Source of the DNA: an uncultured Candidatus Rokubacteria bacterium
GTDB lineage: Bacteria; Methylomirabilota; Methylomirabilia; Rokubacteriales; DASRDR01
DNA: 64,000 nt
Reading direction: 5' to 3'
Assembly (NCBI GenBank): GCA_963805625.1
Contig: CAWDVE010000019.1
Coordinates: 288,001-352,000 of the forward strand
Each line of letters opens with the position of its first letter. Position 1 is the stretch's first letter. The notes under the pieces are model-generated. The model saw nothing but the letters and a program-made list of their open reading frames with translations. It made no database searches and had not been told where the DNA came from. A program made the position numbers and the translations under genes. Positions 13,478-50,645 of this stretch are shown here, in pieces.

Positions 13478-13480
13478 CCT

Positions 13481-13846
13481 ATGGAAGCCAGAAGTTCGGC
13501 CGTCAAGGCAGCGGTTCGAGTCCAACCGGGGTCAGCCGCACGCGCGGCAGAGCTGGCGGGCCGAGGCTTGGCGATCACCGCGGCCGACGAGGAGCTCGCC
13601 GGCCTCACCAGGGCCCTGGGCCATCCGATCCGGGTGGCCATCGTGCGCTACCTACTCGAACAGGGGGAATCGGTCTGCACCGACCTGTCGGAGGTGGTGC
13701 CGCTGGCCCACTCCACGACCATGCAGCACATCAAGGTGCTGAAGGAGGCTGGCCTCCTGTCGGCCGGTCGTTGTGGCCGGAACGTGCTCTACTGCGTGAA
13801 CCTTGAAGCCTTGCGGCAGTTCCGATCCCTCGTGGGCCGTCTCTAG
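13481..13846 (+). CDS. arsR: ArsR/SmtB family repressor
   Basis: ALGHPIRVAI, ESVCTDL, STTMQHIKVLKEAGL, YCVN. Confidence 0.85.
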   Translation: MEARSSAVKAAVRVQPGSAARAAELAGRGLAITAADEELAGLTRALGHPIRVAIVRYLLEQGESVCTDLSEVVPLAHSTTMQHIKVLKEAGLLSAGRCGRNVLYCVNLEALRQFRSLVGRL

Positions 13847-13851
13847 TTTTT

Positions 13852-13880
13852 TTGACTTGAGAAGTCGTGAAACAACGACT
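13852..13880 (+). promoter_or_regulatory. Second copy of the ArsR operator with a -35-like box
   Basis: TTGACT 13852-13857 then perfect palindrome AGTCGT-GAAACA-ACGACT 13863-13880. Confidence 0.7.
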
Positions 13881-13907
13881 GAACATCGACCAGGAGGAGA
13901 AGAAGCG

Positions 13908-15449: not shown

Positions 15450-15454
15450 GATTC

Positions 15455-16687: not shown

Positions 16688-16850
16688 CCGAGCTGCGTCA
16701 GGAGCTCGAGCGCCATCGAGTGCACCTGACCCCGGGGATGGCTCCCGCGCTGAGCGCGACGAACTTGCCTGTCCCCCAACGGTTCATGGCGCATTCGGCC
16801 ATGATGCTGCGGGCGGAGTTGAACAGCACGCGGTAGGGTCCCCGGGTGAC
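16680..16850 (-). pseudogene. arsC: Decayed arsenate reductase fragment
   Basis: YRVLF-NSARSIMAE (catalytic LCTG deleted)...KFVALSAG, then GSHPRGQVHSMALELL in another frame; bounds approximate. Confidence 0.7.
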
Positions 16851-16948
16851 CCGACTCGGTAGGACTTTTCCGCTAGCTCCCGCGCGTGCCTTCTCCATGA
16901 CGAGACCTCCAGCTGCTTGGATCGGCTTCCACTTGCCGACCTCCGGTG

Positions 16949-17470
16949 TCAGCCGTGGGCCGCACTCCCCAGAAGCTTCTCGACGATGACGCAGTCGCGC
17001 CACTGGCCCTCGATCTGGCCGTGGCGCCGGTACACGCCGACGACCCGGAATCCAGCGCGGTCGTGAAGGGCGAGGCTTCCCGTGTTTTCGGGGAAGATCC
17101 GCGAGACGAGCTTCCAGAATCCCCGCGCCGCGTACTCGCGGGCGAGCGCGTCGAGCGCGGCCCGTCCGGCGCCGGCGCCGCGCGCGTGGCGGGCCACGTA
17201 TACGGAGTGCTCGGCCACGCCAGCATAGGCCGGCCGCGCCCGGTAGGGGCCGGCACTAGCCCAGGCGACGATGCGCCCGTCCCGTTCGACCACGACCGTC
17301 GGGTACCGGTCTCCCTTCTCGGTCAGCTGAGCTTCGACGTCCTGCGCCGATCGAGGCGTGGTCTCGAAGGTGGCGATCCGCTCCTCGATACCCTGGTTGT
17401 AGATGTCGGCGATGCTGGCGGCGTCGGCCGTAGTGGCGAGCCGAACGCGAAGCTCCGACCGGTTCGTCAT
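16949..17470 (-). CDS. arsN: ArsN1-like GNAT N-acetyltransferase (phosphinothricin/arsinothricin type)
   Basis: IYNQGIEERIATFET, EHSVYV, WKLVSRIFPEN, WRDCVIVEKLL; ars cluster context. Confidence 0.75.
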   Translation of the reverse strand: MTNRSELRVRLATTADAASIADIYNQGIEERIATFETTPRSAQDVEAQLTEKGDRYPTVVVERDGRIVAWASAGPYRARPAYAGVAEHSVYVARHARGAGAGRAALDALAREYAARGFWKLVSRIFPENTGSLALHDRAGFRVVGVYRRHGQIEGQWRDCVIVEKLLGSAAHG

Positions 17471-17577
17471 CGGTCGCCTGGAGCCGACACGTAGCCGGCC
17501 AGGAGAAGCGCGGTGCCGAGACCTTCCGCGACCAGCGATCGAGCGCGGGGGCTCGGCACCGTCGTCTCGGCCGCCCC

Positions 17578-18396
17578 TCAGGCTGCCGGCTTCCTGGCGC
17601 GGACGAAGGCGCTCAGGAACTTCCCGTCGATCTGGGGAGCGATGACGTCGGCGTCCAGCCCCGTGCCGGCCAGGAAGTCGCGGGCGTCCTCGGCCCGATA
17701 GACGCGCGTCGGCTCGAGATCGATCTCCTCGAAGCCCGCTTTGGCCAGCTTCTCGCGGTACTCGTTCTCCTCGAGTGCGCCGGCAACGCAGCCGATCCAG
17801 AGCTCCACGCTTCGCCGGATCGCCGCGGGCACTTCACCTCGGACCACGACGTCGGAGACGGCGAAGCGCCCACCCGGCTTGAGCACGCGAAAGGCCTCGG
17901 CGAGGACGCGATCCTTGTCGGCCGAGAGATTGATGACGCAGTTCGAGATGATGACGTCCACCGTGTCGTCGGGCAGGGGGATGGCCTCGATCGCGCCCTT
18001 GAGGAACTCGACGTTCGAGACCCCGGCCTTCCGCTGGTTCTCACGGGCGAGCGCCAGCATCTCGTCGGTCATGTCCAGGCCGTACGCCTTGCCTGTCGGC
18101 CCGACGCGCTGGGCAGAGAGCAGGACGTCGATGCCACCGCCGGAGCCGAGGTCGAGCACGACCTCCCCGGGGCGGAGCTGGGCCAGGGCGGTGGGGTTGC
18201 CGCAGCCGAGGGAGGCGCGCACCGCCTCCTCGGGTAAGGCCGTCGTTTCCGAGGCGGCGTAGAGGTTCCCGGTCACGGGATCACAGCCGCTGCGAGACGA
18301 GACCGCGCCGCAGCACCCACCCTCGCCGCTCGTCACTCTGAGGGCGGCCTTCGCGTACTTGTCCCGGACGATCTCGGTGATGTTCGGCTTGCTCAT
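17578..18396 (-). CDS. arsM: Arsenite methyltransferase
   Basis: [41 protein letters not shown]. Confidence 0.92.
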
Positions 18397-18438
18397 GGGA
18401 ATCTCCCTCTTTGTCGGATCCGGGGTCCTGGCCTCGGC

Positions 18439-18454
18439 ATCAAGAACGGTTGAT
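18439..18454. promoter_or_regulatory. ArsR-type operator ATCAA-N6-TTGAT upstream of arsM
   Basis: ATCAAGAACGGTTGAT palindrome, same motif as 18812-18827. Confidence 0.7.
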
Positions 18455-18472
18455 ATGTGGACGCAAAAAAAA

Positions 18473-18799
18473 TCACTCGCACCGGGAGGCGATCCGGAGG
18501 CCACGGCTTCTCGGTGCCCCGATGGCCCCCACGACGTCGCGGAGCTCGTCGACCGCCTCGGGTCTGAGCGTGTAGTAGATCCACCGTCCCTGGCGGCGAT
18601 CGGTCACGAGGCCGGCGTCCTTCAGGGTCTTGAGGTGGAAGGACAAGCGAGACTGGCCAGCCTCCAGCGCGTCGGTCAGATCGCAGACGCACTGCTCACC
18701 GTCGGCGAGCTGCTCGAGGATCCTGAGGCGTGTCTCGTCGGCCAGGGCGTGGAAGAGCCGTGCCGTGCGCTGTCCGTGGCGCGCTGTCGCCGTGCTCAT
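18473..18799 (-). CDS. arsR: ArsR/SmtB family repressor
   Basis: [19 protein letters not shown] metal site, [25 protein letters not shown]. Confidence 0.9.
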
Positions 18800-18811
18800 G
18801 GCGGTTATCAT

Positions 18812-18834
18812 ATCAATCTTTCTTGATCTGTCAA
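18812..18834 (-). promoter_or_regulatory. sigma70 -35 box plus ArsR operator ATCAA-N6-TTGAT
   Basis: ATCAATCTTTCTTGAT 18812-18827; TTGACA on minus strand 18829-18834. Confidence 0.7.
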
Positions 18835-19598
18835 GCCCCTGGCCTCTGGCCCCCGGCCTCTGGCTCCGCCATGGGACACGTGAACGCGTCCTTGCCGGCT
18901 GGTCCCGGGTCGGCCAGGCCCTCGAGGCGTGTGGGCGTCGCCCCCAGGGCTGCGACGTCTTCGAGGACCCAGGCGGCAAGGAGCCTGGCGGCGGCGGCGT
19001 AGTACGGGATCGGGGTCGCCACGCGGAGGGCCCCGGTGAAGGCCTCGGCCCAGCGCCCGAGGTGGTCGGTGAGGAACGCCACCTGTGCGGCGCGCGTCAC
19101 AGAGGCGCCGTCCCCATCGCCCTGGGCCAGGACGTAGGCTTCCTTCAGCGTGAGCGCGCTCATGAACTCGAGCTCGGCGGCGATGTGATCCTCCATGTCG
19201 GGCCGTGCCTCGGCGGGCATGAGCCCGAAGGCAGCGTAGAACCCGGCCACGTCGGCGAGCTCAGCAGACTTCCCGGCCATCCGCGGGACGGGGGCGTAGG
19301 CGCTCTCGTAGGGCGGGCAGCGGACCTGCCGATCGAAGAGGAAGACGTGCTCGCCAACGAGCACGCCGGGATCCGTGTCCCGCACGGCGGCGGCGAGGCA
19401 AGTGAGGTGCTGGCGGAGGTCCGGCGTGACCTCCGGGGCCTCCGCGACTTGCTCGGCAAGCGGCGCCAGCTCCGCGAGCACGCTTGGCGTGGGGTATCCG
19501 AATGCCCGCCCGAGGAGCCGGTAGATCCCGCCGCGCGTCAGGGCGCGGACCACCTCCGTTTCCTGGGAAGTTGGATGTCCCGTCGCCGGGGCGATCAT
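18831..19598 (-). CDS. TorD/DmsD family molybdoenzyme chaperone
   Basis: CPPYESAY, LADVAGFYAAFG, EDHIAAELEFM, FLTDHLGRW; ATGA overlap with the upstream gene. Confidence 0.85.
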   Translation of the reverse strand: MIAPATGHPTSQETEVVRALTRGGIYRLLGRAFGYPTPSVLAELAPLAEQVAEAPEVTPDLRQHLTCLAAAVRDTDPGVLVGEHVFLFDRQVRCPPYESAYAPVPRMAGKSAELADVAGFYAAFGLMPAEARPDMEDHIAAELEFMSALTLKEAYVLAQGDGDGASVTRAAQVAFLTDHLGRWAEAFTGALRVATPIPYYAAAARLLAAWVLEDVAALGATPTRLEGLADPGPAGKDAFTCPMAEPEAGGQRPGA

Positions 19599-20437
19599 CG
19601 CGCGATCCAGAGTGGCACCCACGAGGCCCAGGCCTTGCGCGCTCCCACCTCGCCGTGGCCGCCCTCCCACACCGCGAACGCCGCCACCGTCCGGGTGCCC
19701 GGCGTGAGCGGTGGCGCGTTGAGGTCGTCGGAGACCATGGGGCGTGTGATCACCACCCGCCAGAGGCCGTCGCGCCAGACGCCCATGCCGAGAGCGTGCT
19801 GATCCGGTTTGACCGTCATGGAGCCCCATCCCTCGGCCATCTGATCGAGGACCGGGGACGCCCGCCCCCGGGAGATCGGGTTCTCGAGGCCGAGGGCCCC
19901 CGTGTAGGGACGAGCGTCGGCGGCGCCCAGAACCTCGTCGGGATAGACGTCGGCCCAGGCGTTCGGGTAGAGGTCGCGGACCGTCGGGGTCCCGGAGTCG
20001 ATGTCGCGCTGGAAGGCGGCCCGCCACTGCATGATGTTGACCCGTCCGCCGGGGTTCCCCATCATCGGCGCCGGCGGCGAGGCCTTGACGTTGACCGGGA
20101 GCTGCACCGCGACCTGATCGCCGAAGTTGTCGAGGACGATCTTGTCGGACAGCGTGGGATCCTGCCACTCGAGCAGGAAGGCGATCCAGCCGCCATTGTG
20201 GACGGCCCGAACCACCAGTTCCCTCACGGCCGGGTCGGGCTTGTTCGGTAAAGCCATGACCTGGGGCTGCATCGCGACCTTGACGGGCCGCGCCTGTTTC
20301 CAGTAGGAGGCCTGGGCATCGGCCAGCGGTCCCGCGCCGGGGACACGCACCGCGGTGATGGCCGTCTCGGCCAGAGCCTGGGAAACGAGCCCGATGATGA
20401 TCGTTGCGACGAGGGAGAGGGCGACGCGCGCTCGCAT
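19595..20437 (-). CDS. Heme b gamma subunit (EbdC/NxrC-like, EB_dh domain) with signal peptide
   Basis: Sec-type leader, LEWQDPT, FGDQVAVQ, PMMG (Met ligand), FAVWEG..GARK (Lys ligand). Confidence 0.8.
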   Translation of the reverse strand: MRARVALSLVATIIIGLVSQALAETAITAVRVPGAGPLADAQASYWKQARPVKVAMQPQVMALPNKPDPAVRELVVRAVHNGGWIAFLLEWQDPTLSDKIVLDNFGDQVAVQLPVNVKASPPAPMMGNPGGRVNIMQWRAAFQRDIDSGTPTVRDLYPNAWADVYPDEVLGAADARPYTGALGLENPISRGRASPVLDQMAEGWGSMTVKPDQHALGMGVWRDGLWRVVITRPMVSDDLNAPPLTPGTRTVAAFAVWEGGHGEVGARKAWASWVPLWIAR

Positions 20438-20447
20438 GGGTGTCCTC

Positions 20448-21575
20448 TCAGGTGATGTTGGTGCGGTACGCCTTGTGCCTGATGTCGTAGAGCTCGCGCA
20501 CGATCACCGGCTCTCTCAGCGGGACGCGCACGATCTCGGCCTGTTTCGCGTCGTAGCCCACCGCCCAGTCGCCCGCGAGCCGGAAGTAGTGGATGATCTC
20601 CGGCGTCGAACCGAACAGCGTGAACACGGCCAGAAGCTTCTTGTCGTCCTTGGCCTGCCGGTACGTGTCGGCGGCGTGCTCGATCCCCCAGCCGAACATC
20701 TGCCGGAGGTAGGCGGGCGGGACGTGGATCGGCGGGATGTAGTAAGTGTTGGGTTCGAGCCCGAACTGTGGGTAGAGGGGAAGGGCCACCTTCTTGACGA
20801 AGATCAGGTAGTCGAGCGGATTGTCCTCGTTCACGCGATCCGACGGGCTCATGAACCCCTGGATGCGGATCTTGCCGATGCAGCTGATGGTGCACTGGGT
20901 CTGCCGCCCACCCTCGACGGCGGGGTAGCAGCCGATGCACTTCTCGCTCACCCGGGTCTGGGCGTTGAAGTACACCTTCTTGTAGGGACACGCACGGACA
21001 CACTCGCGGTAGCCGCGGCACCGGCTCTGGTCGAGGAGGACGATGCCGTCCTCCTTGCGCTTGTAGATCGACTGGCGGGGACAGGCCGAGAGGCACGCCG
21101 CGTACGTGCAGTGGTTGCAGATCCTGGGCAGGTAGAACATCCACTGCATGTGGGGCAGCGTGAGGTGGGCGCCCTGGCTCATGAGACCGGTACAGTCGTC
21201 CTCGCCGATGTTGGGGTGGGCGTAGTCCAGGTCGTCGGGGAGATACCCGAGGATCACTTCCCCCGTCGGGGCCGCGTCGTAGAGCGTTTTCCCCTGATAG
21301 ACGGGGCCGTCCATCGGCTGCACCCCGAGCCTGTCCAGGACGTTGACGTCCCAGCCGAGGGGATAGAAGCCATAGGGCTTCGTCTCGACGTTGTTCCAGT
21401 ACATGTACTCCTGGCCGCGCCCCGGGGTCCACGTCGTCTTGCACGCCACCGTGCACGTCTGGCAGGCGATGCACTTATTTGTGTCGAAGATCATGGCGAA
21501 CTGCCGGTCGGGACGCGGGGCCTCGTAGGGGAAGTCCATGTCCCGTCCAAGCTGCCAGTTGTAGACCTTGGCCAT
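20448..21575 (-). CDS. nxrB: Fe-S beta subunit of NXR/NAR-type enzyme (NxrB/NarH-like)
   Basis: [59 protein letters not shown]. Confidence 0.85.
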
Positions 21576-21589
21576 GGCGTCTCTCCTAC

Positions 21590-21655
21590 AGGGGGGGAGC
21601 GAGGGCCGCTCCTCCCCCTAGGCCCCCCCACCCTGGGCGAGCCTGGGGCTCGCCC
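21590..21655. repeat. Two adjacent GC-rich hairpins (REP-like) between alpha and beta genes
   Basis: GGGGGGAGCG...CGCTCCTCCCCC and perfect GGGCGAGCC-TGG-GGCTCGCCC (21635-21655). Confidence 0.5.
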
Positions 21656-21680
21656 GAGTGAATCAGTGCGTGATGTCGCA

Positions 21681-24600
21681 TCAAGCCTTACGGAGGACGA
21701 AGCCGCCGCCCAGGTACTGCTTCATCGCCGCGCTCTCGTTGGTGGGCTGGAGCCCGAGGGTGACCGGACGCCACAGCCCCTTGCCGCCGATGCCGCCATC
21801 CTCCGCCTTCAGCACACGGCACATTGCTTCCCGAGGCGCGCCGGTCACGCAATGGACGTCGACGTTGAACCCCTTCGTGACCTCGTGCGTCCAGCTCTTC
21901 CGGGTGATCAGGGACTGCGTCTGGTGCGTCGGCTTGAGCCACGACCGCGTCAGGCTCTGATGGGAGCCGTAGCGGAAGAACGCTTGGTAGTTGGTGTCGG
22001 GGTTCTTGGCCAGGCCGTCGGGACGGGTCTCGTGGCCCCGGACGGAGCCGGGGGTCGCCATGTAGCCGTTGTGCCACATCCGCATGATCCCGCGCGGGGT
22101 GCCCGGGTAGTAGCGCGCCCGGCAGAGCAGGCGCGCGATCTTGGCCTCCGCCTCGCGCCCCTTCGCCTGCCAGCCCTTGAAGGGGTTGTCCTGGGGATCG
22201 CCGTCGACATAGACGTAGTCGCCGTCGTGGATGCCGAGCTCCCGGGCGTCGAGCGGGTTGAGGTCGATGTAGGCCTCGCCGGTATGCGGCGAGCGCTTGT
22301 CGCGCCGATACATGTCGCCGAACGGGCCGAAGAAGTTCGACATGATGTCGGTGTCGATCGGCGTGGTGTGGGAGCCGTGCCGGTACTTCGGCGTGTGGAA
22401 GACGGCCTTGTAGCCGGCGGGAAGGAGCGGGTGCTCGGTCCGGAGCAGCTCCTCCGGCGTCAGGACCACGTTGCGTCCCTGGCGGGCTGACCAGTCGCGC
22501 TTCGCCCGGTCGAACCCGTAGTCCTCCGGGGTCTTCGGCTGGATGGCCGGGTGCGGCCGGGCCACGATCACGTTCGGATCGTAGAAGGTCGAGTCCACCG
22601 GCTCCCGGTAGACGGGCAGGTTCTCCCCGGCCTCGAGGAACTCCGACTCGCCGCGATAGAACTCGAGCCGCCCCGTCTTCGTGTACCAGGGCTTGGACTC
22701 GTGGACCTGCTCCCACGAGAAGGTCCGCGGATAGGTGCGCACGTTCATGAGGGCGGGGATCCCCTGGCTCGCGAGCGCTTCCAGGTCACGGATCTGGTAG
22801 CCGCGGAGGGGTGCGCTGGCGTCGATGATCCGCTGGAGGTAGACCTCGACCTGGTTCTCCCCGACGAGCTTCCAGTAGTCGGTGAAGCGACGGTCGCCGG
22901 TGAGCTGGGCCAGGGCCGTTGCCACCCCCGCGTAGGTGTCCATGTCGCTGACGGTGCCGAAATTGCGGCGCAGCGGCGTTCGCGGGAACACCTGGACGAA
23001 CGGATTGGTGTTGGACGCCGTCAGATCCGGGTACTTGAACTCCATCCAGGAGTCGATGCCGTAGACGACGTCGGCGTATTCGCAGGAGCCGGACCACCAC
23101 CACTCGTTGACGACCACGCACTCCTGGCGGGGGAGTGTATTGAAGACGACGTTATAGTGGTACTTCGTGTTGGCGATCTGAGAGTTCGAGTTGGTGAGCC
23201 AGATCGCCTTGGTCGGGGTCGGCACATGGGCCCCCGTGGTGAACTGCTTCTGGCCCTCCCGGTGGACGACTTCACCGGCCGCATAGTAGTGGAGCGACTC
23301 GGGACGCAGGTAGCTCCGCACCTTCACAGGGCCGGCGGGATCGAGCTGGGCATTGAAGGGATCCTCGGTCGTCCACAAGGGCATGCCGGAGAACAGCGTG
23401 TTGCGGTAGGTCCCGGCGTACGACCCGACGTTACCGCCGTGCCGGCCGATGTTGCCGGTCAGTGCGGCCAGCAGGAAGACGGCGCGGTCCTTGAGGTCGT
23501 TGTTGAAGAACTGGTTCGGCCCCATGCCGATGGCGAAGAGAGTCTTGCCGCCGTTCGCTGCGATCTCGCGGGCGAGGGCCACGATGGCCTCGGCCGGGGC
23601 CCACGTGATCTTCGACACGGTGTCCGGGGTCATGGTCTCGACCAGGTACTGGCGGAGCAAGTCGAAGACCGGCCGGGCCTGGACCTTGGTCCCATCGGCC
23701 AGCGTGACCTCGAAGCTGCCTTCGAGCGCGGGATCGATCCCGGCCTTCGAGAAGTGCTCGCCGACCTGATCGTGACCGACGGCGACGGGTCGGCCCGCGT
23801 GGATATCCCACATCACGAACTCGCCGAACTCCGAGCGCAGCGCCTCGGGGATCTGGATGCCATTCTGCTGCGGCGTGGGCGAAGCCACCTGGCCGGTCTT
23901 CACTACGTTGACCCAGTTCGTGAAGTCGGCCTCCTGGTGGCCTGGGAACACGTCGCGGGCCATGAGCGGTGCGCGCGTGTCCATGCGCACGAGGCGGGGG
24001 AGGTCGGTGAAGCGCTTGACGAACTCGGCGTCGTAGCGCCGCTCGCTCAGGAGTACCTGGGCGAGCCCGAGGGCGAAGGCGGGGTCGGTGCCGGGCCGGA
24101 TGACGATGACCTCGTCGCCCTTGTTGGCCGTCGCGCTGTACTCGACGGTGATGACCACGACCCTCGTGCCCTTGAGGCGCGCCTCGGTCATCCAGTGGCT
24201 GTCGGGCATCTTGGTGGTGATCCAGTTCATCCCCCAGACCAGGAGGAGGTTCGAGTTCTCGGCGTCGAACAGCTCCCAGTCCGAGGTCTGGTCGCCGTGG
24301 ACCATCGGGTGGCCCGGCGGGAGGTCGGTGTGCCAGGAGTAGGAGTCCCAGGAGCCGGAGCCCATCGCCCGGTCAGGGCCGACCCCGCGCACGTGGGCGT
24401 CGAGCAGGGCCAGCATGTTGCCGAAGCGGAAGGTCCCGAAGATGCGCGTCGCGCCGAGCTTGGCCATTCCGCCCCGCACCTTCGAGGTCCGGATCCCGGC
24501 GCCGCCCAGCGCCTCCACCATCGCGAGGTCATATCCCTGGGCCAGGAGGTAGTTACGCCCCTGCTCGCCGCTGTAGGTGCGCGCGATGTTCTCGAGGGCC

Positions 24601-25145
24601 CGGGCGTGGAGGCGATAGGCCTCCTCGAAAGGCACCCGCACGAAACCATCCCACCCCCGCTTCATTGACTCCGCCGGTGCGCGGCCGGTGACCGGGTCGC
24701 GCGGGAAGCCCTGCTCGACCCATTCCTTGAAGCCCTTCCTCACGAACGCGCCCTTGACCCGCCGGTCGCCGTAGAGGCGGCGCCCGAGGACGAGCCCCTT
24801 CTGGCAGCAGCGCGGGTCCCAGCGGTGCGACGCCCGGTTGCCGGCGAGGTCTGTCGCCTTGCCGTAGCCGTACGTCGGCTCGATACGCACCAGGACGTTG
24901 TTCTTCACGAAGCCACGCAGGAGGCAGTTGTGGGTGTCGTTCGGGGCGCACAGGAACGTGAACGTCCGGTCGTGACGGAAGATGTCGCGGTAGATGCGCT
25001 CCCAGTCGCGGTTCGGGTACTGGGCGAGGGGATTCGGGACGCGGACCGGATCGAGGAAGCGGTACTGGGCCAGGAGGTCGCCCGGGCTTGCTACCGCGCC
25101 AAACCCGGCCATTGCCGCCAGTTGGAGAAACCGCCGTCGGTCCAT
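21681..25145 (-). CDS. nxrA: Tat-exported type II DMSO-reductase-family alpha subunit (periplasmic nitrite oxidoreductase / nitrate reductase-like)
   Basis: MDRRRFLQ Tat signal; CAPNDTHNC...C FS0 motif; [20 protein letters not shown] with Mo-ligand Asp; RBS GAGGGGAG. Confidence 0.85.
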
Positions 25146-25204: not shown

Positions 25205-25220
25205 CGCAAGACGGGTGCCA
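25205..25220 (-). promoter_or_regulatory. sigma54 -24/-12 promoter for the nxr operon
   Basis: minus strand TGGCACCCGTCTTGCG. Confidence 0.85.
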
Positions 25221-25292: not shown

Positions 25293-25330
25293 TGGGGCAA
25301 CGATGACGCGGGTGGGGCGTCACCGCCCCA
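25293..25330. promoter_or_regulatory. Tandem upstream activator sites (TGGGGCG-N4-CGCCCCA)
   Basis: perfect TGGGGCGTCACCGCCCCA 25313-25330; weak copy TGGGGCAACGATGACGCG 25293-25310. Confidence 0.8.
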
Positions 25331-25432: not shown

Positions 25433-26374
25433 CTAGGTGGATCCGGGGGAGGGCGGGGCGCTCGGAGGGTCCGAGAAGCCTTGCTCAGGACCGTGTCCGG
25501 CCAGGACTTGCGCGACGAGCCCCCGGAGCTCGCCCACGCTGAACGGCTTCGCGAGGAAAGCCGCCGCTCCGGCTTTGCGAGCCTGATGGGCCGTCTCCGT
25601 GGACCCGTACCCGGTGACGATGACAACCGGGACGTGAGGTGCGACCTGCCGCGCCCGGGTAAGGAGCGTCAGCCCGTCCATCCCGGGCATGCGCAAGTCG
25701 GCGAGGATCAGATCGAGGAGCCGACCGCGGACCAGGGCCAACGCCTCCTCGCCGCCGGTCGCGGTCAGGGAGTCGTGCCCGCTCAACCGAAGAATGCGGA
25801 CGCAGGTCTCCAGCATGTCGGGATCGTCGTCGACGATCAGGATCGTCCGTCGGCCGGCGCGACGCGCCTCCATGCGAGGCGCAAGGGTCCGGACGAATTC
25901 GGCAAGATCGGACGCACCCAGCCGCTCTGCCATCGTTGCGAGCTTCCCGAGGTGCCCTCCTGGGGCGGGGAGGAACGGGCCGGGATCGCGGTCGCGAGGG
26001 ACCGCCCCAACGAGGTCCGCCAGCGCCCGACTGGCTTCTGATGTTTCGATCGCGATCGCCGCCGCCAATGCGTCCGCACTCGAGCTGATCCCGCGCTCGA
26101 TCCGCTGCCGGTGCTGTCGGATCTCCTGGAGCGCGGCCGCCAGGGGTGCGGCTGGGAGCGCCGGCAGGCTGGCGAGGAGCCCCTCGGCGAGCAGAGATCC
26201 CTGGAGGCCGCGCACCCAGCTCGCGTGCTGGCGCTCCTCCTCCGCCAGGTCCGACCAGAGAGCGCGCAGCTCCGGCGGATCGGCGGAGCGGCGGGCGAGC
26301 CCCTCGTAGAAGGCCGCCGTCTCGGTCTCGATCTCGAGGAGGAGCGCGATCGACCGCACGAGCTCGGTGATCAT
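25433..26374 (-). CDS. Ferritin/rubrerythrin-like domain fused to a receiver domain
   Basis: E..AAFY...LAEEERQH (ExxH) N-domain; ILIVDDD, ADLRMPGMDG, LAKPF receiver. Confidence 0.75.
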   Translation of the reverse strand: MITELVRSIALLLEIETETAAFYEGLARRSADPPELRALWSDLAEEERQHASWVRGLQGSLLAEGLLASLPALPAAPLAAALQEIRQHRQRIERGISSSADALAAAIAIETSEASRALADLVGAVPRDRDPGPFLPAPGGHLGKLATMAERLGASDLAEFVRTLAPRMEARRAGRRTILIVDDDPDMLETCVRILRLSGHDSLTATGGEEALALVRGRLLDLILADLRMPGMDGLTLLTRARQVAPHVPVVIVTGYGSTETAHQARKAGAAAFLAKPFSVGELRGLVAQVLAGHGPEQGFSDPPSAPPSPGST

Positions 26375-28363: not shown

Positions 28364-29674
28364 TTACCGTCCGGCGGCCACCGCAGTGACCTGACCTTGC
28401 CGGGCGAAGTCGATCGCTTCGCCGAGAATCCGGGCGGCTTCCTGCGGCGCGTGGAAGCCCTTTGAGTTCTCGGCCGCCACGAAGTCGAGCCGCCACTGCG
28501 CTTTCCGGTGGAACGCGCGCGCGTCGGCGAGCGCCTCGGGGCGGACGCCGCGCGCGGTCGCCGCCTGCACCGCGTCCATCAGAGCGAGCAGGGCGTTCTC
28601 CGCGAGGCCCATGAGCCGATCGGTCCGGTCCTGAATGGCCTCGGCGCGGGCCAGAATTTCCTGCTCGGAGTAACGGTGGCAGGTCTGGCAGGCGTGGGCG
28701 ACGTTCAGGAGCGGGCTCCGGACATGGTGGTCCGAAACCTTGATCGCTCCCTCGCGCTTGTAGGGCATGTGGCAGTCGGCGCAGGCGACCCCGCTCCGCG
28801 CGTGGATGCCCTGAGTCCAGAGCTCGAACTCGGGGTGCTGGGCCTTCAGGACCGGGGCGCCGGTGTCGGGGTGGTCCCAGTCCTTCCACTTGACCTCGTC
28901 GTAGTACGCCTCGATCTGCTCGACGCCAACACCCTTCGCCCAAGGGTAGACCAGGGTCTTCCCGGATCCCTTGAAGTAGTACTCGACATGACACTGGGCG
29001 CAGACGTACGTCCGCATCTCCTGGCGGGTGGCGTCGCGGTTGACGTCGTAGCCTGCCACGCGCTGGCTGGCCTTGTAGGCGGCGATCCCCGCGAGGAACC
29101 CTGGGCGGGTCACCCGGAGCTGCATGGTAGTCGGGTCGTGGCAGTCACCACAGCTGATGGGATGCGTGACGTGCTGGCGGGCCTCCTTCCAGGGCATCGC
29201 GTTGAGGAGGTCGAAGCCCTTGAGAACGTCGCCGTTCCCGAGCTTCCGATAGGCCGGCATGACCGCCGCGTGGCAGTGGAGACAGGTGCCCGGCTGGGGC
29301 CGCTCCTTCGTGCGCCGGGTTTCGTCTTGGTCCGAGAGCATGTAGGCATGACCGCGCTCCTCGCGGTAATCGAGCCCGAAGGCATAGCCCTTGAAGATCC
29401 GACGCCAGCGGGGGTCCTCGTCGAGCTTCTGGAACGCCTCGCTGCCGCCATGCCGGGTGCGCTGGGCATCGACGGCTCGGCGGTATCCATCGTACTGGCG
29501 GGGGAAGTTCTTGCCCCACTCGGCCGGGTCGATCGTGTCCTCGGTCAGCTTGACCAGCTCCAGGTAGTGCGTCTTCGCCTCGCGCTTCCGCTCGGCGATG
29601 TTGAGGAGGAGCGCGGCGATGCCGGCCATGGTGGCGGCGGCGAGCACCGCGACCGCGATCAGGCGGAGCTTCAT
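28364..29674 (-). CDS. nrfA: Ammonia-forming cytochrome c nitrite reductase (CXXCH active-site variant)
   Basis: RGHAY, five hemes CLHCH/CGDCH/CAQCH/CADCH/CQTCH, HVEYYF, KAQHPEFE, ENSKGFHAP. Confidence 0.92.
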   Translation of the reverse strand: MKLRLIAVAVLAAATMAGIAALLLNIAERKREAKTHYLELVKLTEDTIDPAEWGKNFPRQYDGYRRAVDAQRTRHGGSEAFQKLDEDPRWRRIFKGYAFGLDYREERGHAYMLSDQDETRRTKERPQPGTCLHCHAAVMPAYRKLGNGDVLKGFDLLNAMPWKEARQHVTHPISCGDCHDPTTMQLRVTRPGFLAGIAAYKASQRVAGYDVNRDATRQEMRTYVCAQCHVEYYFKGSGKTLVYPWAKGVGVEQIEAYYDEVKWKDWDHPDTGAPVLKAQHPEFELWTQGIHARSGVACADCHMPYKREGAIKVSDHHVRSPLLNVAHACQTCHRYSEQEILARAEAIQDRTDRLMGLAENALLALMDAVQAATARGVRPEALADARAFHRKAQWRLDFVAAENSKGFHAPQEAARILGEAIDFARQGQVTAVAAGR

Positions 29675-29686
29675 CGTGAGCCTCTC

Positions 29687-30142
29687 TCAGCGCGCGGGCC
29701 CATGGCCCACCTGGGCGTGGCAGATCACGCAGCGGACAGTCGCGGTCTCGGGCTCATGAGGGGCCGCGATCTCGCTCACGAGCTCTCCGTGGCACCGCAT
29801 GCAGTTCTCCTGGAGGATCATGCGGTTCTTGGGCTTGATCCGGATCGGCTCGTGGAAGTCCTGGAACGTGAAGCCCTTCGAGTGCCAGAAGCCGTTCTCG
29901 GCCTTCGCCAGGTACTTGGCGACGAGCGTCGTTGGCAGGTGGCACTCGACGCACGTGGCGACCGCATGATGGCTCGCCTTCTGCCAGGAGTCGTAGGGGT
30001 CGCGCATGATGTGACAGTTGACGCAGGCGCGCGGATCGGCGCTGAAGTACGAGAGTCCCTCGGCGTACCGGAACGTGTAGATGCCGAGCCCCAGGAGCGC
30101 ACCCAGGAGTGTCGCGACCAGGTACGGGGCAGGGGGTGTCAT
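29687..30142 (-). CDS. nrfH: Tetraheme membrane-anchored quinol dehydrogenase
   Basis: N-terminal TM; CVNCHIM, CVECH, CMRCH, CVICH; KAENG. Confidence 0.92.
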   Translation of the reverse strand: MTPPAPYLVATLLGALLGLGIYTFRYAEGLSYFSADPRACVNCHIMRDPYDSWQKASHHAVATCVECHLPTTLVAKYLAKAENGFWHSKGFTFQDFHEPIRIKPKNRMILQENCMRCHGELVSEIAAPHEPETATVRCVICHAQVGHGPAR

Positions 30143-32384: not shown

Positions 32385-34046
32385 TCACCAAATCCGGAAG
32401 CCAGGCGCGTTGAGCGGGGTGGTGGCGATCAGGTGGGCGAGGGACGGGCCGTAGGCGATGAGGATCAGCACGGCCGCGAGCGCGAGCCACGGCCGCCAGC
32501 GGTCGAGAATGGCCGGCGCGTGGTCCGGCCCGGAGAGCGCCTCCGCGAAGCGCGGCATCTCGGGGGCCGGGCCGCGCGACCACACGAGTGTGCCCACGAT
32601 GTTGAGGAAGTAGAGAAGGGCACTCACGAACAGCCCAGTGCCTGCGATCCCTACCCACATGAGATCCCAGTGCCACTCGGGGCGGACGTACGGAGCGGCA
32701 CTCAGCATCGTGCGCCGCGGCGCACCCAGGAGGCCAAGGTTGTGCTGGGCGTGCGAGAAGACCGTCATCGCGACGAACCAGAGCCAGGCTTGGACGAGCG
32801 CCAGGCGACGGCTCCAGAGGGCGCGGCCCCGAAGGGCCGGAACCAGCCAGTAAGTGATGCCCATGAACGACAGGGTGACGGCGGTGCCCACCGTCAGGTG
32901 AAGATGGCCCGGGATCCAGGCCGTATTGTGGACGACCAGATTCAGGTTGTACGAGGCGTTGATGAGGCCACCCACCCCGCCGAAGACGAAGAGGAGCATC
33001 GCCAGAACCTGCGCGGCGACAGACGGGTCGCCCCAGGGCAGCTTCCCGAACCAGGCCACCCAGCCACGGCCCCCGCGTGTGCGAGCTCCGCTCTCGAGTG
33101 AAGCGACGACGTTGAAGAACGTGAGGAGGCTCGGGAAGAAGACCGCGAACGTGAGGAAGGCATGGACCAGCTTCCACAGGCGATGGATACCTGGATCGGC
33201 GTACTGGTGGTGGAACCCCAGCGGGGTGGAGAGGACCAGGAACAGGATGAACGACGTGCGGGCGAGCGGATCGCTGAAGAGCTTGCCGCCTGCCTGGCGG
33301 GGCACGAGGGTATACCAGGAGATGTAGGCCGGCAGCAGCCAGAAGTAGACGATCGGATGTCCCGTGAACCAGAAGAGCGCACGCGCCAGGAGCGGGTCCG
33401 TACCGCTGACGAGCCCCAGCGACCACGGGATGAGCATGAACAGCATCTCGCTGGCGATTCCCACCGACGCGATCGACCACATGGCAAACGTCACCATCCC
33501 CATGAAGGCCGCCAGGGGGGTGCGTTGCCCGGGATTCCGCGCACGCCAGGCGCGGAGCGTCAGCGCCAGGTTCAGGGTGACCAGCCACGTGCCGACGACG
33601 ACCAAGGTCAGGCCGACGTAGAAGGCCCAGTGTGCCTTGAGGGGCGGGTAGAAGGTGAACATTACGCTGGCGGCGTTGCCCACGAGCGGAATGGCCGCGA
33701 GCACGAGCCCACCCGTCATCAGCCAGAACGTGCGCCAGGCGAGCGGTCGGCTCCAGAGCGGGCGCTCGAGGGCCTTCGCGACCAGGAGCGGCACGAATCC
33801 GCAGATGAAGAACGTAGTGAAGACGAGCACGTTGAGGACGCCGTGCAGCGTGAGGCCATGGTAGTACGATCGGATCACCGGCGAGAGGGCCGGATAGAGA
33901 TTCACCCCCGCGTGCTCGAGGGCTTGGAGAAGGCCCACCGTCACTCCCCCGAAGAGCGCCACGAGGGCCACCGTCAGGTTGGCGCCAGCCGCCTGACGCT
34001 CAGCGGAGAGGTCGAGGACTGCCTCGGGCGACGCGGCGGGAGTCAT
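32385..34046 (-). CDS. cbaA: B-family (ba3-type) heme-copper oxygen reductase subunit I
   Basis: [25 protein letters not shown] (His-Tyr cross-link and K-path Tyr), GFHHQ, PSLLT, GHLH. Confidence 0.9.
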
Positions 34047-34531
34047 GGCCGGGCCTCCACGATCACCTTGCCCCACATCGTGTGGTGCGCAATCCCGCAA
34101 TACTCGTGGCAGACGAACGGGTATTCTCCGGGACGGTCGAAGCGGGCCGTCACGCGCGCGATCTGGCCCGGGAGCAGCATCACGTTGACGTTGTGCCGGT
34201 CGACATGGAGACCGTGGACGACGTCCCGGCTCGTGGCGACGAACGTTACCGTCGAGCCCGCCGGCACGCGGACCTCGTTCGGCGTGAAGCTCCAGATGCC
34301 GGCAACCATCCGGACCTCGAAGCGATCGGGGCCGGTCTGGACCACGCCGGGTTGGTCGAACGGTGGCGTTTGCGCGACCTTCGTGACATCAATGCGCCCG
34401 GCGTCGCTTGGGAGGTGGATTCCGACGCCGAAGGCAGTGACAGCCAGCGCCACCAGCATCCCGACCGGGATGGCGATGCTGGGGAGGATCCATGCCAGCT
34501 CGTACAGGTAGACGGTCGTGCCCTGCTTCAT
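34043..34531 (-). CDS. cbaB: ba3-type oxidase subunit II (CuA)
   Basis: [22 protein letters not shown]; ATG 34531 with AGGAG RBS. Confidence 0.9.
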
Positions 34532-34539
34532 CTCGCTCC

Positions 34540-34647
34540 TCACCGGGTCCAGAGCTTGAGGTAGAGGTTGGTCCACATGAAGGCGAGCAGGGCGAGGTAG
34601 ACGAGCATGAAGAGCAACGCCCCCTTCGGATGGTCGTTCTCGTTCAC
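34540..34647 (-). CDS. cbaD: ba3-type oxidase subunit IIa (35 aa), not a separate entry in the ORF track
   Basis: GTG start after AAGGAGG; MNENDHPKGALLFMLVYLALLAFMWTNLYLKLWTR with the PKGAL motif of subunit IIa. Confidence 0.8.
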   Translation of the reverse strand: MNENDHPKGALLFMLVYLALLAFMWTNLYLKLWTR

Positions 34648-42470: not shown

Positions 42471-43853
42471 ATGAACACGAAACCGCGAGTGCTGATCGTG
42501 GACGACGAGCCCGACGTCGTCGCCAACTGGGCTCGGTTGCTCGGCCGAGAGGACTATCCCTGCGTCACCGCGACCGACGGTGAGCGAGCGCTGGCGCTCC
42601 TCGAGAGCGAGCGCCCGGACGTTGTCCTCACCGATCTCAAGATGCCCCGGGTGGATGGAATGCAGGTTCTCGCCCGCGCCCTCGAGCTCGATCCCGACGT
42701 CGTCGTGATCATGATCACTGGCCACGGGACGGTCGAGTCGGCGGTCGAGGCCATGCGGGCGGGAGCGTTCGACTACCTGCTGAAGCCACTGCCTTCCAAC
42801 GACGTGCTCCGCCTGGCCGTCGAGCGCGCGGCCGAACGGCGCCGTCTGATCGAGGAGAATCGCCGGCTGCGGGAGCCGCTCGCGTCGCGCGCGGGTTTCG
42901 ACCAGGTCATCGGCAAGAGCCCGGTGATGACGGCAGTGTTCGACCTCGTCCGGAAGGCTGCCCGGTCCGAGGCCAACATCCTGATCCAGGGAGAATCCGG
43001 AACCGGGAAGGAGCTGATCGCCCGGGCGATCCACGCCCAGAGCGCCCGGGCCGCCGAGGTGTTCGTTCCCGTGGACTGCGCCGCGCTGCCCGATGCGCTG
43101 CTCGAGTCCGAGCTGTTCGGTCACGAGCGCGGCGCGTTCACCGGCGCGGATCGCACCAAGCCCGGGATGATCGAGGTTGCCGACCGGGGCACGCTCTTCC
43201 TCGACGAGATCGGCGAGCTGCCCCAAGCGCTCCAGTCCAAGCTCCTCCGGGCGCTTCAGGAGCGGCAGATCCGTCGCGTCGGCGGGACCAAGTTCGTCAA
43301 CGTGGACATCCGTCTCGTGTCCGCGACCAATCGAGACACCGCGGAGCTCGTCCGGAAGGGCGAGTTCCGCGACGACCTCTTCTACCGCGTCAACGTGATC
43401 ACGATCATGTTGCCGCCTCTCCGCGAACGGGCGGGTGACGTGGGGCTTCTCGCGCACCATTTCCTTCGCCGCTACGGGCGGAACCGCGAGCAGCCGCTCG
43501 AGGGCATCGAGCCGGAGGCGCTCGCGCGCCTGGAGGCCCACGCGTGGCCTGGCAATGTGCGCGAGCTCCAGAACGTGATCGAGCGCGCCTGCGTCCTGAC
43601 GGACGGACCGATGATCCGCGTCCGGGATCTTCCCGATCACGTCCGCGGGCGAGGTCGTCCGGCACCCGCGATTCCAGGCAAGGACCTACCCCTGGCCCAG
43701 GCCCGCGAGGCCTGGCTCCAAGCATTCGCTCAGGGGTACCTCACCGATCTGCTTCGACGACACGGGGGGAACATCTCGCAGGCCGCGAAGACGGCGGGCG
43801 TCGACCGGAAGACGCTTCATCGCCTGCTGGCCAAACACGGGATCAAGGCGTGA
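42471..43853 (+). CDS. NtrC-family sigma54 enhancer-binding response regulator
   Basis: receiver domain, GESGTGKE, GAFTGA, FLDEIG, WPGNVREL, Fis-type HTH. Confidence 0.95.
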   Translation: MNTKPRVLIVDDEPDVVANWARLLGREDYPCVTATDGERALALLESERPDVVLTDLKMPRVDGMQVLARALELDPDVVVIMITGHGTVESAVEAMRAGAFDYLLKPLPSNDVLRLAVERAAERRRLIEENRRLREPLASRAGFDQVIGKSPVMTAVFDLVRKAARSEANILIQGESGTGKELIARAIHAQSARAAEVFVPVDCAALPDALLESELFGHERGAFTGADRTKPGMIEVADRGTLFLDEIGELPQALQSKLLRALQERQIRRVGGTKFVNVDIRLVSATNRDTAELVRKGEFRDDLFYRVNVITIMLPPLRERAGDVGLLAHHFLRRYGRNREQPLEGIEPEALARLEAHAWPGNVRELQNVIERACVLTDGPMIRVRDLPDHVRGRGRPAPAIPGKDLPLAQAREAWLQAFAQGYLTDLLRRHGGNISQAAKTAGVDRKTLHRLLAKHGIKA

Positions 43854-48935: not shown

Positions 48936-50645
48936 TTATGCGGGTCCTGGGAGGTCCTCCAGGATGGGGAAGCTGAGGGTGAACGTCGCGCCCCGGCCAG
49001 CGACGGAATGGACGTCGATGGTCCCGAGATGGTTCTGGACGATCCCGTAGCTCACCGCGAGCCCGAGCCCGGTTCCCGAGGGCTTGGTCGTGTAGAACGG
49101 CTCGAACAGGTGCGGGAGGTGCTCCGGGGAGATCCCGGGCCCCGTGTCCGTCACGATGAGACGCACCCGCCCGGACCGCACCGGATCGCGTCCAGTCTGG
49201 ATGCAGATCTCCCCTCCGCCCGTCAGTGCTTCCCGCGCGTTCGTCAGGAGGTTCAGCAAAACCTGCTGGAGCGCGTTGGCGTCCCCGGGGAGCGACGGGA
49301 GGGGCTGGTCGAGCAGCGTCGTGATGCGAACGTTGTCCGTGCTCATGGGCTTGCCCACGAGGAGGAGCGTCTCCGCGACGACCGTGTTCAGATCGACCGG
49401 GCGCCGCTCGCCGGTGGACTGGCGGGCGAACGACCGGAGGGCCTGGGCGACGCCCGCCACGCGCAGCACGTTGCGGTGGATCACCTTCAAGTCCTCGAGA
49501 TGCTGGTCCGGGAAGGTGTGGCCCTCCGCCTCGCCCAGCATCAGCTCGATCCGTGACGAGATGATGCCCAAGGGGTTGTTCATCTCGTGGGCGACCCCGG
49601 CCACGAGACGGCCGAGGGCGCTGAGCTTCTCAGTCTGATAGAGTACCTCGCGCTGGTGCCGGAGCTCCACCTCGACGCGTCGGTGAGAGAGGTGCTGGCC
49701 GATCCGGCTGCCGATGTCGGTCAGCATGGCGAGGAGCGCTTCATCCGGCTCACGCGAGTCCTGGGTCAGGAGCACCATGACGCCGGTCAAGGTGTGCTCG
49801 CTCTGGATCGGGAAGGCGCAGCCCGACGTCAGCCCGATCTGGGCCGCCGCCGCCGCGCGGCCGCCGGTGAGGCGATCGCCCGGCGCCGCCCAGCATGCGC
49901 GCCCGGTGTCCCAGGCCCGACCGGCCAGCCCCCTCCGGCGTGACAAGACAGTCTCGCGGCTGACCGCGTCGAATTCCGTTGTGTCCAGGTCCGGGCGATG
50001 CCACCCGGAATCGTACCGGAGGGCATCGCCCTCCACGCGCCACAGCTCGCCAACATCCCAGTCGAGGTTCTCGCACAGCGCCTGGAGGAGGCGCGGCGCG
50101 AGTCCCTCCGTTTCGGAGGGTTCGGCGAACACACGCGTCACCATGAACTCCGCCTGCAGTCGCCGCTCTGCGTTCCTGCGCGGCGTGATGTCGGTGACGA
50201 AGCCGAGTGCGAGACGACCTTCCTCCGCCTCGATGAAGCTCAGGCTGATCTCGACGGGGAATTCACGGCCGTCCTTGCGGCGGGCCATGAGATCGAGGCC
50301 GAGTCCCATGGGCCGGACCCGGGGTTCTATAAAGAAGCCGGCGCGGTGCTGCACGTGACTGGCCCGGATGCGCTCGGGCAGGAGGGTCTCCAGAGGCAGG
50401 CCCGGAAGCTCGCCGCGTGCATACCCGAACATCTGTTCCAGTCGACCGTTGGCCCGCACGATCAGGCCTGCGTGATCGACGATGACGATGCCGAGAGGAG
50501 AACTCTCCAGGACGGCATCGGCCTGCATTGAGGGGTCGTGGAACATCCCCTCCGGAGACGCTCCGGGCTGAGCTCCACTCGCGCCGCGCCGCTGGCGCCC
50601 GGCCGGCCTGGACGCCTCTCGTACCTTCGGCTTGCCGTTAGGCAT
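48936..50645 (-). CDS. Cytoplasmic PAS-GAF sensor histidine kinase
   Basis: PAS (LLPERIRASH...RRKDGREFPVEISL), GAF, AHEMNNPL, N/G1/F/G2 boxes; no TM segment; start uncertain. Confidence 0.9.
   Translation of the reverse strand: MPNGKPKVREASRPAGRQRRGASGAQPGASPEGMFHDPSMQADAVLESSPLGIVIVDHAGLIVRANGRLEQMFGYARGELPGLPLETLLPERIRASHVQHRAGFFIEPRVRPMGLGLDLMARRKDGREFPVEISLSFIEAEEGRLALGFVTDITPRRNAERRLQAEFMVTRVFAEPSETEGLAPRLLQALCENLDWDVGELWRVEGDALRYDSGWHRPDLDTTEFDAVSRETVLSRRRGLAGRAWDTGRACWAAPGDRLTGGRAAAAAQIGLTSGCAFPIQSEHTLTGVMVLLTQDSREPDEALLAMLTDIGSRIGQHLSHRRVEVELRHQREVLYQTEKLSALGRLVAGVAHEMNNPLGIISSRIELMLGEAEGHTFPDQHLEDLKVIHRNVLRVAGVAQALRSFARQSTGERRPVDLNTVVAETLLLVGKPMSTDNVRITTLLDQPLPSLPGDANALQQVLLNLLTNAREALTGGGEICIQTGRDPVRSGRVRLIVTDTGPGISPEHLPHLFEPFYTTKPSGTGLGLAVSYGIVQNHLGTIDVHSVAGRGATFTLSFPILEDLPGPA

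What the first reader, a model, noticed from the sequence alone, without database searches (positions are those of the whole stretch)
18831..25145. Periplasmic NXR-like enzyme with mixed NXR/NAR signatures; catalytic direction is open
Seen: a Tat signal and FS0 motif C-x3-D-x3-C (Asp rather than the His-led motif of NarG). The substrate region Y-x4-D-LPP...G-D-Q-T is NarG-like. The beta subunit begins VYNWQLGR and keeps Cys in [11 protein letters not shown]. The gamma subunit is a heme-b EbdC type and there is no NarI. Established: the Asp-containing FS0 and periplasmic location typify Nitrospira/anammox-type and related periplasmic NXRs. Inference: co-regulation with NrfAH under a putative low-O2 regulon favours nitrate reduction (fully periplasmic DNRA). 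The co-regulated cytochrome c and ba3 oxidase would also allow nitrite oxidation at low O2. The regulon context helps interpret NXR-like genes in uncultured lineages.
Basis: partly seen in the sequence, partly recalled or inferred. Interest (0 to 1): 0.7.

Follow-up and report, generated by a model that had tools for sequence, protein, structure and literature searches.

The report
Periplasmic Nitrotoga-clade nitrate/nitrite enzyme operon
An uncultured bacterium, likely a Rokubacterium, carries an intact four-gene operon for a molybdenum enzyme of an already described, widespread nitrate/nitrite-converting family; the enzyme is predicted to be exported and, from a likely low-oxygen promoter, most likely reduces nitrate rather than oxidising nitrite.

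Summary
The 'mixed' signature is the normal one of a described group, the sister clade of periplasmic NXRs that holds Ca. Nitrotoga NXR and putative periplasmic nitrate reductases (Kitzinger 2018). Two trees place the alpha subunit there, 80-85% identical to rokubacterial proteins, 47% to Nitrotoga-type, and outside the anammox-type clade. It is the genome's only respiratory nitrate enzyme found; RuBisCO and acetyl-CoA synthase were not found. Shared regulation has sequence support: a sigma54 box and a palindrome TGGGGC-N6-GCCCCA lie upstream of alpha and recur before nirK, a Rieske/cytochrome b operon and stress genes. Oxygen control itself is inferred. Best reading: inducible periplasmic nitrate reductase (0.65). 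The scan met look-alikes before in 27 windows of other genomes. New member of a known kind.

The parts
21681..25145 (-). Catalytic alpha subunit (NxrA/NarG-like, 1154 aa): twin-arginine motif, FS0 C66/D70/C74/C114, N69, Mo ligand D274
20448..21575 (-). Iron-sulfur beta subunit (375 aa, 16 Cys, no signal stretch)
   Evidence: (387 bits to Kuenenia NxrB)
19595..20437 (-). EbdC-type haem b gamma subunit (280 aa), one N-terminal hydrophobic stretch, M126/K268 as predicted haem ligands
18831..19598 (-). TorD/NarJ-type chaperone (255 aa)
25206..25220 (-). Predicted sigma54 -24/-12 promoter of the operon (TGGCAC-N5-TTGC)
25313..25330 (.). Perfect palindrome TGGGGC-N6-GCCCCA, candidate activator (enhancer) site about 90 nt upstream of the sigma54 box
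28364..30142 (-). Context: nrfH-nrfA (five CxxCH motifs in NrfA), last genes of the oxidase-ligase-nrfHA run
32385..34576 (-). Context: B-family (ba3-like) haem-copper oxidase subunits I and II; sigma54-like box with one mismatch at 34700
42471..43853 (+). Context: NtrC-type sigma54 activator, candidate regulator of the island (binding not shown)
48936..50645 (-). Context: PAS-GAF histidine kinase, candidate sensor (signal unknown)

Best explanation
The operon encodes a likely Tat-exported, soluble periplasmic molybdenum enzyme of the Nitrotoga/Natronococcus sister clade that most likely reduces nitrate to nitrite when a predicted sigma54 regulon is switched on, probably by low oxygen. Shown from sequence: the four genes, cofactor ligands, clade, promoter motifs, and no other respiratory nitrate reductase found in the genome. 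Inferred: the chaperone loads the cofactor; alpha-beta go out by Tat and gamma by Sec; electrons from the quinol pool pass through a Rieske/cytochrome b complex with the same promoter motifs (contig C13) or another quinol oxidase to c-type cytochromes, then to the Met/Lys haem b, the Fe-S chain and Mo. Nitrite formed outside the membrane would be taken on by NrfAH (to ammonium) or NirK (to NO), with no nitrate transporter needed.
For: Clade placement with support 100 in two trees. Kitzinger 2018 states this clade holds known nitrate reducers and one characterised periplasmic NAR (Hydrogenobacter), and that only Nitrotoga is shown to oxidise nitrite (section read). The query keeps the NarG-like loop (D-LPP..G.QT, as in Paracoccus and Haloferax NarG) where the Nitrotoga-type proteins differ (D-LAPGC..GHQM). 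In G000 (99.9% complete, 6.3% contamination) no NarG passes TIGR01580, none of 11 other molybdopterin ORFs scanned is NapA, and NarK is under cut-off. RuBisCO and acetyl-CoA synthase were not found. Canonical NarG is in 1 of 145 genomes of the order, while 42 of 145 have an NXR-like hit. Eight strict sigma54 boxes lie in the window against a genome mean of 0.82 per 64 kb. The palindrome plus a sigma54-like box also precede nirK and the Rieske/cytochrome b/multihaem operon. The island holds USP, CBS, Hsp20, FNT and B-family oxidase genes, like the hypoxia-induced NmpR regulon of Myxococcus. FNR-type boxes precede 28 of 63 related alpha genes against 0 of 424 control windows. At least six relatives hold both this clade and a near-full anammox-type copy, which fits a division of labour.
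Against: Purified Kuenenia NXR runs both ways, and the clade contains a true nitrite oxidiser. All 4 Nitrotoga-type loci have FNR-like boxes upstream, so promoter type does not fix direction. The Met/Lys haem b is of the high-potential kind, and the same island encodes an oxygen reductase and a cytochrome c. Oxygen as the signal is not shown: no protoglobin kinase was found and the palindrome differs from the NmpR site. The promoter before the oxidase-nrfHA run is degenerate in this genome. nrfA does not co-occur preferentially (5 of 20 against 47 of 145). The operon encodes no quinol-oxidising partner, so the electron route is inferred. The ATP-citrate lyase search had no working control, so autotrophy by rTCA or other routes is not excluded. 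No expression or activity data.
Confidence: 0.65

Rival explanations
1. The enzyme mainly oxidises nitrite to nitrate in the periplasm and passes electrons through cytochrome c to the co-regulated B-family oxidase, giving a heterotroph extra energy or nitrite detoxification at low oxygen.
For: Same clade as the Nitrotoga-type NXR, with identical FS0 motif and FNR-like boxes before those loci. High-potential-type Met/Lys haem ligands. Oxidase, cytochrome c and an FNT channel sit in the same island. The genome has alternative complex III-like genes, two A-type and two B-type oxidases and an alt-NxrC/bd-like module. Becraft 2017 notes nitrite oxidoreductases in Rokubacteria (one passage).
Against: Only 47% identical to the Nitrotoga-type proteins, with a different substrate loop and a 280-aa rather than 371-aa gamma. 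One copy only, where Nitrotoga has two or three. RuBisCO not found. The alt-NxrC module is in 101 of 145 genomes, including all 15 other members of the family, most without any NXR, so it is no sign of nitrite oxidation. NrfAH and NirK in the same regulon would consume the nitrite.
Confidence: 0.17
2. The enzyme is used both ways in vivo: nitrate reduction in anoxia and nitrite oxidation when traces of oxygen return, direction being set by the redox state of periplasmic cytochromes.
For: Kuenenia NXR is bidirectional in vitro. The predicted regulon holds both quinol-side modules (NrfH, Rieske/cytochrome b) and an oxygen reductase. Kitzinger 2018 raises this possibility for the clade.
Against: No direct evidence; it needs high-potential carriers that were not demonstrated.
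Confidence: 0.13
3. The physiological substrate is another oxyanion (chlorate, selenate or arsenate/arsenite), suggested by the arsenic-resistance genes directly downstream.
For: arsR and arsM begin right after the chaperone gene. Type II enzymes often have side activity on chlorate (own knowledge).
Against: 905 bits to NxrA against 194 to perchlorate reductase and 139 to ethylbenzene dehydrogenase. The ars genes have their own sigma70-like promoter with an inverted repeat. An arsM-like gene lies near only 1 of 70 related loci.
Confidence: 0.05

Closest known systems
Sister clade of periplasmic NXR/NAR enzymes (Ca. Nitrotoga fabula NxrABC plus chaperone; Hydrogenobacter thermophilus periplasmic NAR), Kitzinger et al. 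2018, PMC6050957
   Same: Alpha-beta-gamma-chaperone operon, Tat alpha, soluble haem gamma with Sec-type N-terminus, Cys in beta where Nitrospira has Asp, same clade in two trees.
   Different: 47% identity to Nitrotoga-type alpha; loop ends QT not QM; gamma 280 aa not 371-372; single copy; RuBisCO not found in the host. No Hydrogenobacter sequence was in hand, so that comparison rests on the paper.
Kuenenia stuttgartiensis NXR-ABC (PDB 7B04; Chicano et al. 2021, PMC8387239), Nitrospira/Nitrospina/anammox clade
   Same: Best solved relative of all three subunits; 3Cys/Asp FS0, Asn, Mo-binding Asp, Met/Lys haem b.
   Different: Different clade: 905 bits against 1768 for an anammox-type rokubacterial protein; loop D-LPP..GDQ against D-QAP..GLQ; shorter beta; four-gene operon, not a 15-gene cluster.
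Respiratory NarGHJI (Escherichia coli, Paracoccus) and haloarchaeal periplasmic NarG (Haloferax mediterranei)
   Same: Y-x4-D-LPP..G-x-Q-T loop, Asp-ligated Mo, likely the same reaction.
   Different: About 24-28% identity over the best local alignment; His-led FS0 absent; no NarI; TIGR01580 score 164.5 against cut-off 1084.
Myxococcus xanthus NmpRSTU oxygen-limitation regulon (McAllister et al. 2025, PMC11841059)
   Same: NtrC-type activator with sigma54 promoters driving CBS, USP and high-affinity oxidase genes.
   Different: Site is GCGCA-N5-TGCGC there and TGGGGC-N6-GCCCCA here; no protoglobin kinase found here; orthology of the activators was not tested.

Membership tests
Nitrotoga/Natronococcus sister clade of periplasmic NXR/NAR | Alpha subunit branches with Nitrotoga NxrA, apart from Nitrospira/anammox NXRs | tested here: met
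   Support 100 in IQ-TREE (47 rows) and FastTree (73 rows). The Nitrotoga references are unnamed metagenome loci identified by the QM motif and subunit lengths 1169/385/371-372 aa.
Nitrotoga/Natronococcus sister clade of periplasmic NXR/NAR | Tat alpha, Fe-S beta, soluble haem gamma and chaperone in one operon | tested here: met
   export signals read by motif and hydropathy only
Nitrotoga/Natronococcus sister clade of periplasmic NXR/NAR | Nitrate/nitrite interconversion | not testable with these tools
   Active-site residues conserved; no assay
Ca. Nitrotoga NXR in the strict sense | Y-x4-D-x11-QM loop, about 371-aa gamma, at least 98% mutual alpha identity | tested here: not met
   QT, 280 aa, 47% (paper values)
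Nitrospira/Nitrospina/anammox periplasmic NXR | 3Cys/Asp FS0, Asn and Mo-binding Asp, Met/Lys haem b | tested here: met
   not diagnostic, since FS0 is Asp or Cys in both clades
Nitrospira/Nitrospina/anammox periplasmic NXR | Branches within that clade | tested here: not met
   AU test p=4e-5 (groups chosen after seeing the tree). The clade was represented by proxies scored against Kuenenia, not by named Nitrospira sequences.
Cytoplasmic NarGHI and Nitrobacter-type NXR | His-led FS0, no Tat signal, NarI anchor, TIGR01580 cut-off | tested here: not met
Perchlorate, selenate, chlorate, ethylbenzene and DMS enzymes | About 900-980-aa alpha above TIGR03479 cut-off and closest by score | tested here: not met
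   301.8 bits against cut-off 984.75; 194 and 139 bits to PcrA and EbdA. No Ser, Clr or Ddh sequence was in the trees.
Chemolithoautotrophic nitrite oxidiser | CO2-fixation pathway in the genome | tested here: inconclusive
   RuBisCO and acetyl-CoA synthase not found with working controls; ATP-citrate lyase search had no positive control; other pathways not searched
NmpR-type oxygen regulon | GCGCA-N5-TGCGC site and protoglobin sensor kinase | tested here: not met
   Different palindrome; protoglobin 0 matches with working control

The most novel reading that the evidence does not exclude
Rokubacteria run an undescribed sigma54 regulon marked by TGGGGC-N6-GCCCCA that switches on this enzyme together with a high-affinity oxidase, so that a heterotroph oxidises nitrite at trace oxygen and reverses the same enzyme to respire nitrate in anoxia: an overlooked guild of non-autotrophic nitrite oxidisers in soils and aquifers.
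Probability: 0.15. Interest if true: 0.7.

Novelty: new member of a known kind. Interest (0 to 1): 0.3.

Why it matters
Genes of this clade are counted as nitrite oxidation in some surveys and nitrate reduction in others. In this order canonical NarG is nearly absent (1 of 145) while NXR-like genes of two clades are common (42 of 145), so the choice changes the predicted nitrogen role of the whole group. The enzyme itself adds little: hundreds of relatives are on record. The usable additions are a concrete promoter-plus-palindrome signature that can be tested, a same-genus genome with the island but without the operon, and the caution that low-oxygen-type boxes also precede Nitrotoga-type NXR genes.

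Tried and rejected
FNR, CRP and Rex box scans upstream of alpha in the window found nothing. Conserved nrfAH linkage: rejected. Arsenic substrate from neighbouring ars genes: rejected. The alt-NxrC/bd-like module as a sign of nitrite oxidation: rejected, it is core to the family. FNR boxes as proof of reduction: rejected by the Nitrotoga-type control. Protoglobin sensor: not found. ATP-citrate lyase search uninformative. A first DNA pattern for Nitrotoga found 0 matches; the looser one gave 101 stretches, 7 of which matched alpha (4 long loci, 3 fragments). Searches with the query, 50% representatives and the Natronococcus protein returned no named Nitrotoga, Nitrospira or Hydrogenobacter sequence. 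The mixture-model tree did not finish; one search left out 26 of 73 rows, one search used all. Fifteen RNA runs held only 0.05-0.12 of the sampled words; none was laid, so they are no evidence and expression stays open. The Hydrogenobacter enzyme paper was not held under the DOI I recalled. No structure or complex prediction was run: a close solved structure exists and a model would not decide direction.
Full report
Observation. The stretch holds four minus-strand genes: alpha 25145-21681, beta 21575-20448, gamma 20437-19595 and a chaperone 19598-18831. Against Kuenenia NXR (PDB 7B04), alpha scores 905 bits, beta 387 and gamma 70; the next family, perchlorate reductase, gives alpha 194 bits. 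C66, N69, D70 and D274 fall on the FS0 and active-site residues described by Chicano 2021, and gamma keeps the Met/Lys haem ligands (first part of the main section read). Gamma has one hydrophobic stretch at its N-terminus, read as a Sec signal (inference).

Host. The named close homologues are mostly Rokubacteria/Methylomirabilota, so I infer that lineage. G000 is 99.9% complete with 6.3% contamination and has one copy of the gene. Of 16 molybdopterin-domain matches, one is this gene and 11 other ORFs were scanned against NCBIfam; none is NapA or NarG. The other four matches (three pieces on C11, one on C21) were judged from the ORF listing only. NarK is under cut-off, NirK is present, RuBisCO and acetyl-CoA synthase were not found, and the ATP-citrate lyase test was uninformative.

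Clade. Kitzinger 2018 (section 9 read) describes a sister clade to the Nitrospira/Nitrospina/anammox NXRs that holds Nitrotoga NXR, known nitrate reducers and the characterised Hydrogenobacter enzyme; Microflora Danica counts 581 such sequences (passages). No named Nitrotoga protein came back from my searches, so I scanned metagenomes for the published QM motif. Four loci have subunits of 1169, 385 and 371-372 aa, the lengths given by Boddicker and Mosier (passages); I treat them as Nitrotoga-type. Two trees put the query in a clade with support 100 with these, Natronococcus occultus, Inmirania, Magnetominusculus, Thioalkalivibrio and Thiomargarita, nearest to rokubacterial proteins at 80-85%. 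A separate clade of 41-43% rokubacterial proteins is anammox-type: one scores 1768 bits to Kuenenia. AU tests reject joining the query group to the anammox-type clade or directly to the Nitrotoga-type rows (groups chosen after seeing the tree, simple model, 26 rows). The 'mixed' signature is the clade norm: D-LPPGH..G.QT dominates the clade's sequences in hand, FS0 is Asp or Cys in both clades, and the Nitrotoga-type rows are the ones that depart in the loop. Boddicker and Mosier note that the last loop residue varies among nitrite oxidisers, so it does not tell direction.

Regulation. There is no FNR box before alpha. There is a sigma54 box at 25220-25206, one of 8 strict boxes in the window against 0.82 per 64 kb genome-wide. 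I spotted the palindrome TGGGGC-N6-GCCCCA by eye in these promoters, so its presence at 7 of 8 window boxes is partly circular. Independent checks: 15 of 85 boxes elsewhere have it within two mismatches against 2.5% of random windows; perfect copies number 9 at spacing 6 and 0-3 at spacings 4, 5, 7 and 8; orthologous promoters in G137 keep it; and 7 of 17 close relatives have it before alpha against 8 of 417 control windows. A genome scan gives 37 sites with both motifs, including ones before nirK and before an operon of EbdC-like haem protein, multihaem cytochromes, Rieske protein and cytochrome b; some of the 37 will be chance. An NtrC-type activator and a PAS-GAF kinase sit in the island. 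The gene content (USP, CBS, Hsp20, B-family oxidase) resembles the hypoxia-induced NmpR regulon of Myxococcus (abstract, passages and section 22 read) and, from my own knowledge, the mycobacterial DosR set. The site differs from NmpR's and no protoglobin kinase was found, so oxygen as the signal is inferred. One paper search for the palindrome's letters with sigma54 terms returned one paper on another subject, seen only as a listing; a search of this scan's notes found none. That is thin ground for 'not in print'.

Link to NrfAH. nrfHA ends a run that starts with the oxidase genes; its sigma54 box has one mismatch and its palindrome is degenerate in G000, while both are intact in G137. G137, same genus and 98% complete, has the island up to the response regulator just upstream of alpha but not the enzyme. 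Of 9 other genomes of the genus, 1 has an NXR-like hit, of the anammox type. The operon is therefore a variable module at the island's edge; gain or loss was not resolved. nrfA/H are in 0 of 70 related loci (39 long enough), and 5 of 20 genomes with the close type have nrfA against 47 of 145 overall (kin are not independent). A fully periplasmic nitrate-to-ammonium route is possible in this genome but is not a property of the clade.

Direction. For reduction: nitrate reducers in the clade, the NarG-like loop, no other respiratory nitrate reductase found, two carbon-fixation markers absent, quinol-side modules and two nitrite reductases under or near the same motifs, and FNR boxes before 28 of 63 relatives against 0 of 424 controls (all 28 among the 46 more distant relatives). 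Against certainty: the enzyme type is reversible in vitro, an oxidase and cytochrome c share the island, and all 4 Nitrotoga-type loci have FNR-like boxes too. The alt-NxrC/bd-like module that Luecker 2013 ties to nitrite oxidation (passages) is in G000 but also in 101 of 145 genomes of the order, so it does not help. Expression was not assessed. I put reduction at 0.65, oxidation at 0.17, use in both directions at 0.13 and another oxyanion at 0.05.

Verdict. Real, intact and correctly read; a new member of a described, widespread and mostly untested clade. Becraft 2017 already mentions nitrite oxidoreductases in Rokubacteria (one passage; its supplement, not opened, may say more). This scan found look-alikes in 27 windows of 27 other genomes. 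The candidate sigma54 enhancer and the Nitrotoga control are the useful additions. Interest 0.3.

Noticed in passing
window 25200-62800; G000 C19 to about 394000, C13:318963, C17:600165, C17:772862: Candidate sigma54 regulon marked by TGGGGC-N6-GCCCCA about 60-170 nt upstream of -24/-12 boxes; 37 predicted sites in the genome, conserved in G137 and before alpha in other relatives.
   Followed up: partly
L130, L151, L185, L192, upstream of alpha: Nitrotoga-type nxr operons carry an FNR/DNR-like box roughly 250-280 nt upstream of the start codon.
   Followed up: partly
L003, L004, L006, L021, L024, L035, L036, L037, upstream of alpha: A Crp/Fnr-like box of the form (T/A)TGAC-N4-GTCATA precedes 8 of 17 close relatives (2 of 417 controls); ATGAY-N4-RTCAT occurs five times on G000 C14, the contig with a second B-type oxidase cluster and a Crp/Fnr regulator.
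   Followed up: partly
L223:630-9627 (G000 C13): Cluster of tetrahaem cytochromes, EbdC-like haem protein, 9-haem cytochrome, Rieske protein, cytochrome b, c7-like and NapC-like cytochromes, most of it behind a perfect palindrome and sigma54 box.
   Followed up: partly
L085:6357-13965 and L086:2799-4679 (G000 C21): Nitrospira-like bd-like protein, dihaem cytochrome and trihaem/EbdC fusion next to an A-type oxidase; the fusion has matches in 101 of 145 genomes of the order.
   Followed up: partly
L087 (G143 C361); also G111, G122, G124, G005, G084: Genomes with both a sister-clade and an anammox-type periplasmic NXR-like alpha; in G143 the two lie side by side.
   Followed up: partly
window 28364-29674: NrfA has CxxCH at all five haem motifs, with no CxxCK.
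   Followed up: no
window 10467-18850: Arsenic-resistance-type cluster (SBF-family transporter, two ArsR-like genes, MFS, flavoprotein, GNAT, arsM); a sigma70-like promoter with an ATCAA-N6-TTGAT repeat overlaps the chaperone stop codon.
   Followed up: partly
window 25433-26374: 313-aa protein with a C-terminal receiver domain and an N-terminal part with no Pfam match, directly upstream of the operon; conserved in G137.
   Followed up: no
window 55312-56148 and 45095-46406: A partial carbohydrate phosphorylase gene and a gene that appears split across two frames; possibly decayed or misassembled.
   Followed up: no
L106:6055-9201: The Natronococcus occultus plasmid copy has no listed CDS under the match and its ORF lacks about 100 N-terminal residues.
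   Followed up: no
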